This document shows, piece by piece, positions 3,001 through 6,000 of a stretch of DNA of 64,000 nt (the first letter of the stretch is position 1; each line of letters opens with the position of its first letter). The stretch is from Escherichia coli O157:H7 (GTDB lineage Bacteria; Pseudomonadota; Gammaproteobacteria; Enterobacterales; Enterobacteriaceae), in NCBI RefSeq assembly GCF_013167455.1, contig NZ_CP038328.1. One strand, 5' to 3'. A program made the position numbers.

Positions 3001-6000
3001 GAAGGTAAGCGCTAATAAAAAGTGCCGGGTAGTGGCTTTGCTTTACCCGGCCTCATTACTTTATTTTATAAAATGACAGCCGCCCGCTTTTCGGCGATCC
3101 GGTATCAATATAAATCTGGTTAGCGAACGTCTGAATGTTATCAAACATCATATGTCCAAATATAAAATAATCAGCGCCGTTTATTTGTTGTAACTCGCCA
3201 TTAAGCGATTTCTGCACACGATCAACAGGCCAGAGTAATTCGCTCTCCGCTATTTCTTTACCAAAGAGATATTCACTCCCCGGATAATCTGCATGTGCGA
3301 TGACATATTTTATGTTGTCGTTAGTGATTTCAATAATATGTGGAAGGTGATGGAATTTCAGCAACAGATCTGTAGCTTCTTTTTGCTCTGAATCATTTAA
3401 ATCGAAAAACCAGTCACCACCGCTGGCAAGCCACATATTGCCATCGCCGGTCGCGAACGCATCCAGCGCCATTGCTTCGTGGTTGCCTTTAACGGAGATA
3501 AACCAGGGCTGGTTTAGCAGGCGCAGGACGTTAAGACTCTCCGGCCCACGATCAATATTATCGCCGACAGAAATAAGTAAGTCGGTTTCGGGGAAAAAAG
3601 AGAGTTGATGTAAGCGGGATTGTAATAACTGATATTCACCATGAATATCACCAACGACCCATATATGGCGATAGTGATGGGTATTGATTTTTTGATAGCG
3701 TGTAGATGGCATGGTTTTACCCTGTAAAATAAGCTTTCCTATTATACAGGGTATTTTTATTTGATTCGTCAGTTATCGTTAATATTCCCGATAGCAAAAG
3801 ACTATCGGGAATTATTATTACACCAGACTCTTCAGGCGATAAATCCATTCCAGCGCCTGACGCGGGGTGAGTGAATCCGGATCGAGGTTTTCCAGTGCCT
3901 CGACTGCAGGCGAGGTTTCTTCCGGTACGGACAGCAAAGACATTTGCGTACCATCCACTTGCGTAGCGGCGGCGTTCGGCGAAATGCTTTCCAGCTCACG
4001 CAGTTTTTGCCGTGCGCGCTTAATAACCTCTTTTGGCACGCCGGCCAGAGCTGCAACCGCCAGGCCGTAGCTTTTGCTCGCCGCGCCATCCTGCACGCTA
4101 TGCATAAAGGCAATGGTGTCGCCGTGCTCCAGTGCATCGAGATGCACGTTGGCGACGCCTTCCATTTTCTCCGGTAACTGGGTCAGCTCGAAATAGTGGG
4201 TGGCAAACAGCGTCAACGCCTTAATCTTATTCGCCAGATTTTCCGCGCACGCCCACGCCAGCGACAGACCATCGTAAGTGGACGTTCCGCGCCCAATCTC
4301 ATCCATCAGCACCAGACTGTACTCGGTGGCGTTATGCAGAATATTAGCGGTTTCGGTCATCTCCACCATAAAGGTTGAACGCCCGGAAGCCAGATCATCC
4401 GCTGCCCCTACGCGGGTAAAGATACGGTCAATCGGGCCAATCTCGACTTTTTGCGCCGGTACGTAGCTGCCGATATAGGCCATCAGCGCAATCAGTGCGG
4501 TCTGGCGCATATAGGTACTTTTACCGCCCATGTTCGGACCGGTAATAATCAACATCCGGCGCTGCGGTGACAGATTCAGCGGGTTGGCGATAAATGGCTC
4601 GTTCAGCACCTGTTCAACCACCGGATGGCGGCCTTCGGTAATGCGAATGCCCGGTTTATCAATGAAGGTCGGGCAGGTGTAGTTCAGGGTATAGGCCCGT
4701 TCCGCCAGGTTCACCAGCACGTCGAGTTCCGCCAGCGCGCTCGCGCTCTGTTGCAACGCTTCCAGATGCGGCAACAGCAGGTCGAACAGCTCTTCATAAA
4801 GCTGTTTTTCCAGAGCCAGTGCTTTGCCTTTTGAAGTGAGGACTTTATCTTCGTACTCTTTTAGCTCTGGAATGATGTAGCGCTCGGCGTTTTTCAGCGT
4901 CTGGCGACGCATATAGTTGATAGGTGCCAGATGGCTTTGCCCACGGCTGATTTGAATGTAGTAGCCGTGCACCGCATTAAAGCCAACTTTTAGCGTGTCC
5001 AGGCCGGTACGTTCACGCTCGCGGACTTCCAGACGCTCCAGATAATCGGTCGCGCCGTCAGCCAGCGCGCGCCACTCATCCAGCTCTTCGTTATAGCCTG
5101 ATGCGATAACACCACCGTCGCGTACCAGCACCGGCGGTGTGTCGATGATTGCTCGCTCCAGCAGATCGCGCAGCTCGGCAAACTCGCCCATCTTCTCACG
5201 TAGCGCCTGTACTGGTGCACTATCAACAGTTTCTAACTGCGCACGCAGCTCCGGCAGTTGCTGGAAAGCGTGACGCATACGGGCCAGATCGCGTGGGCGA
5301 GCGGTACGCAACGCCAGACGCGCCAGAATACGTTCCAGGTCGCCGACCTGACGTAGTACCGGCTGCAACTCGGCGGTGAAATCCTGCAATGCGCCAATAG
5401 TTTGCTGGCGCTCAAGCAACACGCGGGTATCGCGCACTGGCATATGCAGCCAGCGTTTCAGCATACGGCTGCCCATCGGCGTGACGGTGCAGTCGAGCAC
5501 AGAAGCCAGCGTATTTTCCGCACCACCCGCCAGGTTCTGGGTGATTTCCAGATTACGACGCGTCGCGGCATCCATAATGATGCTGTCCTGCTCACGTTCC
5601 ATGGTGATGGAACGAATATGCGGCAGAGTCGTACGTTGGGTATCTTTCGCATACTGCAACAGACAACCGGCAGCACAAAGTCCGCGCGGCGCGTTCTCGA
5701 CGCCAAAACCGACCAGATCGCGGGTCCCAAATTGCAGATTCAACTGCTGGCGCGCGGTGTCGATTTCAAACTCCCACAGCGGGCGACGGCGCAGGCCGCG
5801 ACGGCCTTCAATTAACGACATTTCAGCAAAATCTTCTGCATACAGCAGTTCCGCAGGATTAGTGCGTTGCAGTTCTGCCGCCATCGTTTCCCGGTCAGCC
5901 GGTTCGCTCAGGCGAAAACGACCGGAACTGATATCCAGCGTCGCGTAGCCGAAACCTTTGCTGTCCTGCCAGATAGCCGCCAGCAGGTTGTCCTGACGCT

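What the first reader, a model, noticed from the sequence alone, without database searches (positions are those of the whole stretch)
3713..3817. Two strong inverted repeats between mutS stop and pphB start
CCCTGTAAAATAAGCTTTCCTATTATACAGGG (3720-3751) and TTCCCGATAGCAAAAGACTATCGGGAA (3786-3812) form stable hairpins in the 105-bp spacer. Neither is a textbook hairpin + U-run terminator on the mutS/pphB (minus) strand, so they may act in mRNA stability, as a binding site, or mark the recombination junction where the AT-rich pphB segment joins core DNA.
Basis: seen in the sequence. Interest (0 to 1): 0.25.

Follow-up and report, generated by a model that had tools for sequence, protein, structure and literature searches.

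The report
mutS mRNA end hairpins, pphB promoter
The two hairpins between mutS and pphB in E. coli O157:H7 are real RNA structures at the tail of the mutS message: one is an old, conserved stem-loop just after the mutS stop codon, and the other is where the mutS mRNA ends in published K-12 maps and also contains the pphB promoter and ribosome-binding site. This is a tidy but fairly ordinary piece of gene punctuation.

Summary
Both inverted repeats exist, and both fold far better than shuffled sequence. On the mutS/pphB sense strand IR1 gives -18.3 kcal/mol and IR2 gives -17.6.

The window is E. coli O157:H7. The 105-nt spacer is kept at 95-100% identity in about 5,200 of 5,426 complete E. coli genomes.

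IR2 lies next to the mutS stop. It is a mutS-linked stem-loop found 4-10 nt after the stop codon in Escherichia, Salmonella, Citrobacter and Superficieibacter, whatever gene follows. It shows strong compensatory change and G·U pairs only on the mutS sense strand.

IR1 lies next to pphB and is found only in E. coli and E. albertii. Two published K-12 data sets place the 3' end of the monocistronic mutS mRNA at its base. It has no U-tract, and a bicyclomycin (Rho-inhibitor) experiment maps a Rho termination region there.

IR1's 5' arm holds a perfect TATAAT, a mapped transcription start lies in its loop, and its 3' arm holds the pphB Shine-Dalgarno. It can therefore form only in RNA arriving from mutS, where it hides the pphB ribosome site.

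My best reading is a Rho-dependent-type 3'-end hairpin that also insulates pphB. The O157/K-12 polymorphism break is at the pphB stop, not in this spacer.

Interest is low to moderate: a new member of a known kind.

The parts
3812..3820 (-). mutS stop codon TAA (3820-3818) followed by two more in-frame TAA codons
   Evidence: Sequence; CDS end from ORF list and RefSeq annotation. K-12 has TAA TAA CAA.
3784..3812 (-). IR2: stem-loop just after the mutS stop codon. Arms 3812-3802 and 3794-3784, loop 3801-3795. No U-tract on this strand.
   Evidence: -17.6 kcal/mol, z -7.5. A comparable hairpin follows the mutS stop in 10 lineages. Covariation: 96.6% paired, 7 of 11 pairs changed on both sides, 0 of 500 shuffles as high. 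Single copy per E. coli genome.
3754..3783 (-). A/T-rich linker between the hairpins. It contains the TTAACG (3782-3777) and TAAAAA (3759-3754) hexamers proposed as a constitutive sigma-70 promoter.
   Evidence: Shimada 2014 gSELEX table, PMC3946193; positions. Poorly conserved in E. albertii apart from the A-tract.
3718..3753 (-). IR1: stem-loop at the 3' end of the mutS mRNA. Arms 3753-3740 and 3731-3718, one U·U mismatch.
   Evidence: -18.3 kcal/mol, z -6.0. The K-12 equivalent is listed with the same fold (-17 kcal/mol) as the 'Primary' mutS terminus. Present only in E. coli and, more weakly (-7.9), in E. albertii.
3741..3746 (-). Perfect TATAAT, the likely pphB -10 element, inside the 5' arm of IR1
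   Evidence: Sequence. A TATAAT lies about 28-33 nt upstream of the pphB ATG in every pphB orthologue examined, including those without IR1.
3734..3734 (-). pphB transcription start (K-12 2859738), in the loop of IR1, 7 nt after the TATAAT
   Evidence: Thomason 2015 dRNA-seq TSS, as listed under 'Nearby TSS' in the TRS supplementary data. The alternative coordinate-version reading has no -10-like sequence. This base is polymorphic (G/T/A) among E. coli strains.
3720..3723 (-). pphB Shine-Dalgarno AGGG, 7 nt before the ATG, inside the 3' arm of IR1
   Evidence: Sequence. Predicted unpaired probability is 0.0 in RNA coming from mutS, against 0.80/0.77/0.14/0.16 in RNA starting at 3734.
3713..3719 (-). 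Mapped steady-state 3' end of the mutS mRNA (K-12 2859753-2859759), at and just after the last paired base of IR1
   Evidence: TRS peak 2859753-2859763, dominant positions 2859756/58/59, longest U-tract 1-2. SMRT-Cappable-seq TTS at 2859753: of the reads at or past the site, 23 end there, 4 end within 50 bp downstream and 10 pass through with a median extension of 375 nt. Rho termination region with best coordinate 2859755.
3565..3742 (-). C-rich, G-poor stretch (C about 26-28%, G about 12-14%) covering the start of pphB; candidate Rho loading region
   Evidence: Composition in 78-nt windows. Matches the mild C-over-G enrichment downstream of Rho-dependent termini described by Dar & Sorek 2018.
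3710..3712 (-). pphB start codon ATG
   Evidence: ORF list and RefSeq annotation.

Best explanation
The 105-nt spacer is both the 3' untranslated region of a monocistronic mutS mRNA and the promoter and leader of pphB. The two hairpins have different histories and roles.

IR2 (3784-3812) is an ancient stem-loop tied to mutS. It starts 4-10 nt after the stop codon and is kept by compensatory substitution in Escherichia, Salmonella, Citrobacter and Superficieibacter, whatever gene lies downstream. It acts as RNA in the mutS sense. Most likely it is a barrier to 3'->5' exonucleases, and the principal 3' hairpin in lineages that lack IR1. In K-12, transcription runs through it.

IR1 (3718-3753) is specific to the E. 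coli/E. albertii arrangement, in which pphB follows mutS directly. The proposed sequence of events is:
1. RNA polymerase coming from mutS transcribes IR1. (Shown: transcripts end there or pass through.)
2. The hairpin buries the pphB Shine-Dalgarno in its 3' arm, so pphB is not translated on this RNA. (Burial predicted by folding; the effect on translation is inferred.)
3. The C-rich start of pphB is left bare, so Rho loads and terminates within the next few hundred nucleotides. (A Rho-sensitive region is shown; the loading site is inferred.)
4. Exonucleases trim the RNA back to the base of IR1, giving the precise, U-less 3' end seen in K-12. (End position shown; trimming inferred.)

pphB's own promoter uses the TATAAT in IR1's 5' arm and starts in the loop. 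Its mRNA therefore lacks the 5' arm, cannot form IR1, and has a much more exposed ribosome-binding site than read-through RNA (two of the four SD bases mostly unpaired).
For: Hairpins are real and stable.

mutS mRNA 3' end at the base of IR1 in K-12, where the spacer has no indels relative to O157:
- TRS lists a 'Primary' mutS terminus at 2859753-63 in several data sets, with longest U-tract 1-2 and a 3' UTR of 105 nt.
- SMRT-Cappable-seq gives a full-length read class 2857024->2859753 covering b2733 only. At or past that site 23 reads end at it, 4 end within 50 bp downstream, and 10 pass through by a median of 375 nt.

Rho involvement: the Rho region peaks at 2859755. Coverage downstream rises from 39 to 172 with bicyclomycin while upstream stays at 71 versus 69 (Rho score 4.5, p = 2.7e-10).

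The class is already described: Rho-dependent transcripts end just after stable stem-loops with low U content and mild C>G enrichment downstream. C/G is about 2 downstream of IR1.

pphB promoter and leader:
- TSS 2859738 corresponds to window 3734, 7 nt after a perfect TATAAT.
- The TATAAT is conserved upstream of all pphB orthologues examined.
- The SD is fully paired only in read-through RNA.

IR2:
- Covariation: 96.6% of cells paired, 7 of 11 pairs changed on both sides, 0 of 500 shuffles as high; slid controls give 22-45% paired.
- Six G·U cells on the sense strand and no A·C cells.
- Present after the Salmonella and C. werkmanii mutS stop, although pphB is not downstream there.

Stems are invariant in 8 diverse E. 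coli strains, while loops and linkers vary.
Against: - All transcript data are from K-12 under laboratory conditions, not from O157.
- Adams et al.'s curated Term-seq list has no 3' end here.
- The Rho call uses 800-nt windows. It could equally reflect de-repression of the H-NS-bound pphB promoter by bicyclomycin.
- IR1 is preceded by an A-tract, which Dar & Sorek say is not typical of Rho-dependent termini.
- The TSS comes second-hand from a table whose coordinate version I could only check indirectly. An alternative promoter (TTAACG-17-TAAAAA) would put all of IR1 into the pphB leader.
- No 3' end is reported at IR2, so its present role in E. coli is not shown.
- IR1 is much weaker in E. albertii (-7.9 kcal/mol), with uncompensated changes.
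- The IR2 alignment used hand-delimited arms, masked loops and one removed bulge, in only 8 sequences, so it leans towards the structure.
Confidence: 0.6

Rival explanations
1. IR1 and/or IR2 are non-canonical intrinsic (Rho-independent) terminators. The hairpin alone, perhaps helped by NusA or NusG, stops RNA polymerase at the end of mutS. The bicyclomycin effect is an indirect one on pphB.
For: A precise 3' end sits right at a stable hairpin. 62% of reads reaching the site end there. Hairpin energies are in the range of real terminators.
Against: There is no U-tract after either hairpin on the sense strand; the longest U run at the mapped end is 1-2. No 3' end is reported at IR2. Read-through reads extend by a median of 375 nt and stop inside pphB, which looks like diffuse downstream termination. 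A Rho region is called exactly here.
Confidence: 0.15
2. The repeats matter as DNA. They would be a recombination or insertion boundary at the edge of the variable mutS-rpoS region, or a cruciform or IS target, marking where the AT-rich pphB segment was joined to core DNA.
For: Sequence conserved across genera stops right after IR2. Different genes sit between mutS and pphB in E. marmotae, Klebsiella spallanzanii and a metagenomic relative. pphB is on the other side of mutS in Salmonella. IS1 ends lie in or next to IR2 in two strains that lost pphB. GC content drops at the spacer.
Against: The O157/K-12 break is at the pphB stop, not here. The spacer is intact in about 96% of E. coli genomes. 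IR2 covaries with G·U pairs that work only as sense-strand RNA. Transcript ends map to IR1. A boundary next to a gene's terminal hairpin is expected simply because insertions inside the gene or its terminator are selected against.
Confidence: 0.12
3. The palindromes are protein-binding operators for pphB. IR1 is centred on the transcription start and overlaps the -10, a typical repressor position. IR2 is centred near -64, a typical activator position.
For: Positions relative to the TSS. Both are near-perfect dyads. RNA polymerase holoenzyme and H-NS binding are reported in the spacer.
Against: No regulator is known, and none was tested here. IR2 is conserved after mutS in genomes where pphB is not downstream. 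Its arm sequence changes freely as long as pairing is kept, including G·U pairs. The 3' half of IR1 decays in E. albertii while the 5' half, which is the promoter, stays.
Confidence: 0.08
4. On the opposite (plus) strand, IR1 and perhaps IR2 are intrinsic terminators. They would stop antisense transcription crossing pphB from the convergent genes before it enters mutS.
For: On the plus strand IR1 (-14.5 kcal/mol) is followed by UAUUUUUAUUU, and IR2 (-15.8) by UAUUAUUACA, which the scanner flags. Antisense RNA over pphB exists in K-12, where a Rho region is called at 2860217 on the minus strand.
Against: No 3' end on that strand appears near these positions in the tables searched. A hairpin+U element already sits between pphB and the convergent gene at 3024-3051. 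The G·U pairs of IR2 favour the mutS sense strand.
Confidence: 0.05

Closest known systems
[quoted passage not shown]
   Same: IR1 is a stable stem-loop with no U-rich tail. The steady-state 3' end lies within a few nt of its base. Downstream sequence is C-over-G enriched. The region is bicyclomycin-sensitive, and read-through ends diffusely downstream.
   Different: IR1 is preceded by an A-tract, which that paper says is not typical. Dependence on PNPase or RNase II has not been shown for this site. I could not check whether mutS is in their table. IR1 also carries the next gene's -10, TSS and SD.
Canonical intrinsic (Rho-independent) terminators
   Same: A stem-loop of similar size and energy directly after a gene, with a precise RNA 3' end at IR1.
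   Different: Neither hairpin has a U-tract on the mutS sense strand. Only the plus-strand versions have T-rich tails.
REP/BIME extragenic palindromes that stabilise upstream mRNA. From my own knowledge: Newbury et al. 1987 (stabilisation); Liang, Rudd & Deutscher 2015 (REPs within about 15 nt of a stop codon lower expression through ribosome stalling and tmRNA).
   Same: IR2 is an extragenic hairpin a few nt after a stop codon. The hairpin at the same place in Citrobacter sp. FP75 looks like a REP (TGCCCGATGGCG...CTTATCGGGCCTAC) and shares CCCGAT.G / ATCGGG with IR2.
   Different: IR2 is single-copy in E. coli genomes and lacks the GC-rich REP core. Any effect on translation termination is untested.
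Hairpins that sequester the Shine-Dalgarno and expose the message to Rho-dependent polarity (as in riboswitch- or sRNA-controlled leaders such as mgtA, ribB and chiP; general knowledge)
   Same: The pphB SD lies in the 3' arm of a stable hairpin, followed by C-rich RNA and a Rho-sensitive region.
   Different: Here the switch is not a ligand or an sRNA. It is which promoter made the RNA: the 5' arm is present only in transcripts from mutS. No translation data exist.

Membership tests
Intrinsic (Rho-independent) terminator | Stable G+C-containing stem-loop directly after the gene | tested here: met
   IR2 -17.6 and IR1 -18.3 kcal/mol on the sense strand, z -7.5 and -6.0.
Intrinsic (Rho-independent) terminator | Run of U residues immediately 3' of the stem on the transcribed strand | tested here: not met
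   IR2 is followed by AUAUUAACG and IR1 by AAAACCAUG. The scanner finds neither on the minus strand. TRS lists a longest U-tract of 1-2 at the mapped end. The feature is met only on the plus strand.
Rho-dependent transcript 3'-end stem-loop (Dar & Sorek class) | Steady-state 3' end within a few nt downstream of a stable stem-loop | tested here: met
   For IR1, from published K-12 tables: 2859753-2859759 corresponds to window 3719-3713. Not met for IR2: no end is listed there.
Rho-dependent transcript 3'-end stem-loop (Dar & Sorek class) | Read-through increases when Rho is inhibited | tested here: met
   Adams 2021, supplementary file 2: best coordinate 2859755, downstream coverage 39 -> 172 with bicyclomycin, Rho score 4.5, p = 2.7e-10. 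Resolution is low (800-nt windows), and an indirect promoter effect is not excluded.
Rho-dependent transcript 3'-end stem-loop (Dar & Sorek class) | C-over-G enrichment (rut-like RNA) just downstream | tested here: met
   C 26-28%, G 12-14%, C/G about 2 for window 3742-3565 on the minus strand.
Rho-dependent transcript 3'-end stem-loop (Dar & Sorek class) | 3' end produced or protected against PNPase/RNase II trimming | not testable with these tools
   Needs 3'-end mapping in pnp and rnb mutants.
REP/BIME repeat family | Dispersed in many copies per genome | tested here: not met
   The 37-nt IR2 query finds a median of 1 place per genome in 5,216 genomes, and one match in the 64-kb window.
REP/BIME repeat family | REP consensus sequence (recalled from memory, not checked with a tool here) | tested here: inconclusive
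   There is only a partial resemblance (CCCGAT.G / ATCGGG). The Citrobacter sp. FP75 hairpin at the same site looks REP-like. No REP model was run.
Shine-Dalgarno-sequestering hairpin (translational insulator) | SD base-paired in one RNA form and free in another | tested here: met
   Prediction only: unpaired probability 0.0 in RNA from mutS, against up to 0.8 in RNA from TSS 3734.
Shine-Dalgarno-sequestering hairpin (translational insulator) | Measured effect on translation of the downstream gene | not testable with these tools
   Needs reporter fusions or ribosome profiling.
Any curated RNA family (Rfam 15) | Match above the family's gathering score | tested here: not met
   The only hit is a chance-level match to a eukaryotic miRNA model: 22.9 bits against a threshold of 66, E = 0.1.

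The most novel reading that the evidence does not exclude
IR2 may be more than a passive 3' barrier. It has been kept by compensatory evolution across several enterobacterial genera, always 4-10 nt after the mutS stop codon. That is inside the footprint of a terminating ribosome, so the ribosome would have to melt it each time. IR2 might therefore tune translation termination or ribosome rescue, and with it the cellular MutS level and mutation rate. IR1 would then be a promoter-embedded 'origin-sensing' hairpin that lets the cell treat the same pphB leader differently depending on which promoter produced it.
Probability: 0.15. Interest if true: 0.5.

Novelty: new member of a known kind. Interest (0 to 1): 0.25.

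Why it matters
MutS abundance sets mutation and recombination rates, and the mutS-rpoS interval is a classic polymorphic region of E. coli and Salmonella. Three things follow from this analysis:
- It defines the true mutS transcription unit: monocistronic, with a 105-nt structured 3' UTR that ends 1-6 nt before the pphB ATG.
- It suggests how the H-NS-bound, AT-rich pphB may be kept uncoupled from mutS despite a gap of only 105 nt.
- It identifies a covarying mutS 3' stem-loop that could be tested for effects on MutS level.

It is also a clean example of one sequence serving as the upstream gene's terminal hairpin and as the downstream gene's -10, transcription start and Shine-Dalgarno. None of this overturns current understanding.

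Tried and rejected
- Rfam scan at a permissive threshold: nothing relevant.
- Repeat-family idea for IR2: rejected as tested, since it is single-copy per genome.
- Recombination junction within E. coli: the 1.2-kb comparison puts the O157/K-12 break at window ~3057, the pphB stop, not in the spacer.
- The simple terminator scan misses IR1 because of its internal mismatch, and flags IR2 only on the plus strand.
- Population variation among 8 diverse E. coli strains was too low to test covariation. Stems were invariant, and 7 polymorphic sites lay mostly in loops and linkers.
I filled the gaps through PphB homologues and their contigs.
- The ORFs next to pphB in E. marmotae (177 aa) and Salmonella (173 aa) are unrelated, so there is no shared 'ORF+pphB' cassette.
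- Supplementary tables were not held for Dar & Sorek 2018, Choe 2022 and Thomason 2015. The Cappable-seq 2016 tables had no entry here.
- Adams 2021's curated Term-seq list has no 3' end in the spacer.
- I considered that TSS 2859738 might be given in older genome coordinates. The corresponding alternative site (2861716, inside ygbJ) has no -10-like sequence, so I rejected this reading, though only indirectly.
- I searched for the Liang/Deutscher REP-translation paper and did not find it in the library. That comparison rests on my own knowledge.
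Full report
**1. What is there**

The window is E. coli O157:H7. A 1.2-kb stretch around the finding is 100% identical to O157:H7 chromosomes. RefSeq annotates rpoS, a MarR-family regulator, hydroxyarylic acid decarboxylase subunits B/C/D, then pphB and mutS on the opposite strand.

mutS occupies 3818-6379 (-) and pphB 3056-3712 (-). The spacer is 3713-3817.

Both inverted repeats are present:
- IR1 has arms 3718-3731 and 3740-3753 (14 nt, one mismatch).
- IR2 has arms 3784-3794 and 3802-3812 (11 nt, perfect).

The IR2 string is at 3785-3811, one base off.

Folded as RNA in the mutS/pphB sense, IR1 gives -18.3 and IR2 -17.6 kcal/mol, and the whole spacer -36.5 (z = -7.7). 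No shuffle did as well.

Neither hairpin has a U-run after it on that strand. On the plus strand IR1 is followed by TTTTTATTT and IR2 by TATTATTACA. No Rfam family matches.

**2. Distribution**

The spacer is present at 95-100% identity in 5,201 of 5,426 complete E. coli genomes. IR2 is single-copy per genome, so it is not a dispersed repeat.

Among eight diverse E. coli strains the stems of both hairpins are invariant. The seven polymorphic sites fall as follows:
- the codon after the stop;
- the loop-closing pair of IR2;
- three sites in the linker and A-tract between the hairpins;
- the outermost pair of IR1;
- the IR1 loop.

The O157 versus K-12 difference in the mutS-rpoS region begins at the pphB stop (window ~3057), not in this spacer.

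**3. IR2 belongs to mutS**

I looked at what follows the mutS stop codon in other taxa. A hairpin with the core CCCGAT(A/G)G...C(T/C)ATCGGG begins 4-10 nt after the stop in these lineages, with energies of -17.6 to -32 kcal/mol:
- E. coli;
- E. albertii;
- E. marmotae;
- a cryptic-clade 'E. coli';
- Salmonella enterica;
- Superficieibacter electus;
- a metagenomic relative;
- Citrobacter werkmanii;
- Citrobacter sp. FP75 (a REP-like form).

It is there when pphB is not downstream. In Salmonella pphB lies upstream of mutS, next to SPI-1. C. werkmanii has no pphB at this locus.

On an arms-only alignment, 96.6% of cells pair and 7 of 11 pairs have changes on both sides. No shuffle out of 500 reaches the observed values, and sliding the partner columns drops pairing to 22-45%.

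Six cells are G·U on the mutS sense strand, and none is A·C. This points to RNA in the mutS sense rather than to DNA or the opposite strand.

Caveats: I delimited the arms by hand, masked the loops, removed one bulged T, and had only eight sequences.

More distant enterobacteria (Yersinia, Pantoea, some Klebsiella and Enterobacter) have mutS directly convergent with rpoS and an ordinary hairpin+U terminator.

**4. IR1 is where the mutS mRNA ends**

K-12 has the same 105-nt spacer with four substitutions and no indels. Coordinates therefore map linearly: window = 3712 - (x - 2859760).

The TRS study (Nat Commun 2023, PMC10687069) lists a 3' terminus at 2859753-2859763, with dominant positions 2859756/58/59, in several K-12 data sets.
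- It is classed as the 'Primary' terminus of mutS.
- The listed fold is the IR1 fold (-17 kcal/mol), with a longest U-tract of 1-2.
- The 3' UTR is 105 nt.

Independently, SMRT-Cappable-seq (PMC6131387) reports full-length primary transcripts from 2857024 to 2859753 that contain only b2733 (mutS), flagged 'novelTTS'. At or past that site 23 reads end at it, 4 end within 50 bp downstream, and 10 pass through by a median of 375 nt, which means they stop inside pphB.

These positions correspond to window 3719-3713, the last paired base of IR1 and the next few nucleotides. No terminus is listed at IR2 in the sheets that contain the IR1 peak. Adams et al.'s curated Term-seq list has no end here.

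**5. Rho**

Adams et al. 2021 (PMC7815308, supplementary file 2) call a Rho termination region with best coordinate 2859755 (+). With bicyclomycin, coverage in the 800 nt downstream rises from 39 to 172, while the 800 nt upstream stays at 71 versus 69 (score 4.5, p = 2.7e-10).

[quoted passage not shown] These have low U content and a mild C-over-G enrichment downstream.

Downstream of IR1 the sense strand has C 26-28% and G 12-14% for about 150 nt. IR1 fits this class, except that it has an upstream A-tract. That A-tract is the complement of the plus-strand T-run.

**6. IR1 is also the pphB promoter and leader**

- The 5' arm contains a perfect TATAAT (3746-3741).
- The TRS table lists a Thomason et al. 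2015 dRNA-seq start at 2859738, which is window 3734. That is 7 nt after the TATAAT and in the hairpin loop.
- If that number were in older genome coordinates, it would fall inside ygbJ, where there is no -10-like sequence. I therefore accept it, with that caveat.
- A TATAAT about 28-33 nt upstream of the ATG is present in every pphB orthologue I retrieved. That includes those with no IR1: E. marmotae, Salmonella, Superficieibacter, and contigs L089, L098 and L099.
- The 3' arm contains the likely Shine-Dalgarno, AGGG (3723-3720), 7 nt before the ATG.

In RNA coming from mutS, the predicted probability that these bases are unpaired is 0.0. In RNA starting at 3734 it is 0.80/0.77/0.14/0.16.

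Shimada et al. 2014 (PMC3946193) found a sigma-70 holoenzyme SELEX peak in this spacer, flagged for H-NS. They proposed TTAACG-17-TAAAAA as the promoter, which lies between the hairpins. If that one is used, the whole of IR1 would sit in the pphB leader.

IR1 exists only in E. coli and, much weakened (-7.9 kcal/mol), in E. albertii. There the 3' arm has two uncompensated changes while the promoter-bearing 5' arm has none. These are the lineages in which pphB directly follows mutS.

**7. Proposed mechanism**

Shown:
- Both hairpins are stable.
- IR2 is under selection for pairing as sense RNA.
- In K-12 the mutS mRNA is monocistronic and ends at IR1.
- The site has no U-tract.
- Rho inhibition raises RNA downstream.

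Inferred:
1. Polymerase from mutS runs through IR2 and IR1.
2. IR1 hides the pphB ribosome-binding site.
3. The untranslated C-rich start of pphB lets Rho load and terminate within a few hundred nucleotides.
4. Exonucleases trim back to IR1.
5. pphB's own transcripts start inside the loop, cannot form IR1, and are translated.

IR2 is most likely an older exonuclease barrier. It would be the principal 3' hairpin where IR1 is absent.

**8. Rivals**

- A non-canonical intrinsic terminator is possible, but it fits the missing U-tract, the Rho call and the pattern of read-through poorly.
- A DNA-level junction is partly true in a descriptive sense. Conserved sequence ends after IR2, various genes are inserted there in other taxa, and IS1 ends lie at or in IR2 in two strains. 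It does not explain the G·U covariation or the transcript ends, and the E. coli polymorphism break is elsewhere.
- Operator palindromes and plus-strand terminators remain untested minor possibilities.

**9. Verdict**

'Junction' is only loosely right.

The elements belong to known kinds. The transcript end is already in public tables as an unremarked 'novel TTS'. The specific anatomy appears not to have been described: a covarying mutS 3' stem-loop, plus a terminal hairpin that embeds the next gene's -10, start site and Shine-Dalgarno.

Interest is low to moderate.

Noticed in passing
window 3812-3820 (minus strand): mutS in O157 ends with three consecutive in-frame TAA codons. K-12 has TAA TAA CAA and an ETEC strain has TAA TAA AAA. 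The third codon is one of the few polymorphic sites in the spacer.
   Followed up: partly
L002 (NZ_CP024228.1) ~3945-4000 and L003 (NZ_CP063499.1) ~3764-3830; equivalent to window 3783-3794: Two unrelated E. coli strains have lost pphB (one also lost several ygb genes), and IS1 sits next to mutS. One IS1 end lies inside the IR2 loop, so only the mutS-proximal arm is kept. The other lies 1-2 nt outside IR2. The two endpoints are within about 12 nt of each other.
   Followed up: partly
L004 (NZ_CP076235.1, O157:H7 strain 9.1_Anguil) 3661-4005 / 3990-6230: A deletion joins a truncated rpoS to a mutS that lacks its C-terminus, removing everything between them. The strain would be a natural rpoS/mutS double mutant and a candidate mutator, unless this is an assembly error.
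   Followed up: no
window 3024-3051: The hairpin GCCGGGTAGTGGCTTTGCTTTACCCGGC lies between the convergent pphB and decarboxylase subunit D genes. On the pphB strand it is followed by ACTTTTTATT, which is a conventional terminator for pphB, and it probably works in both directions.
   Followed up: partly
L086 2334-3000, L091 345-1011, L088 1336-3000, L089 1316-3000: The gap between mutS and pphB holds different cargo in other taxa. E. marmotae and a cryptic-clade 'E. coli' have a 534-bp ORF on the opposite strand. A metagenomic relative has an HTH+HipA pair. Klebsiella spallanzanii has a 276-aa ORF plus hok/gef genes flanking pphB, and it also has the O157-type decarboxylase operon after pphB.
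   Followed up: partly
window 3795-3801 versus L005 ~3620-3626: The IR2 loop in E. albertii (CAAAATG) resembles the reverse complement of the E. coli loop (TCTTTTG, reverse complement CAAAAGA). This could be a hairpin-loop inversion.
   Followed up: no
K-12 2860217 (minus strand), inside pphB; roughly window 3255 on the plus strand: Adams et al. 2021 list a Rho termination region antisense to pphB (score 5.9). Antisense RNA therefore enters pphB from the convergent side in K-12.
   Followed up: no
window 3717-3848 (minus strand): A 43-codon ATG ORF in another frame spans the mutS 3' end and the whole spacer. It is probably spurious.
   Followed up: no
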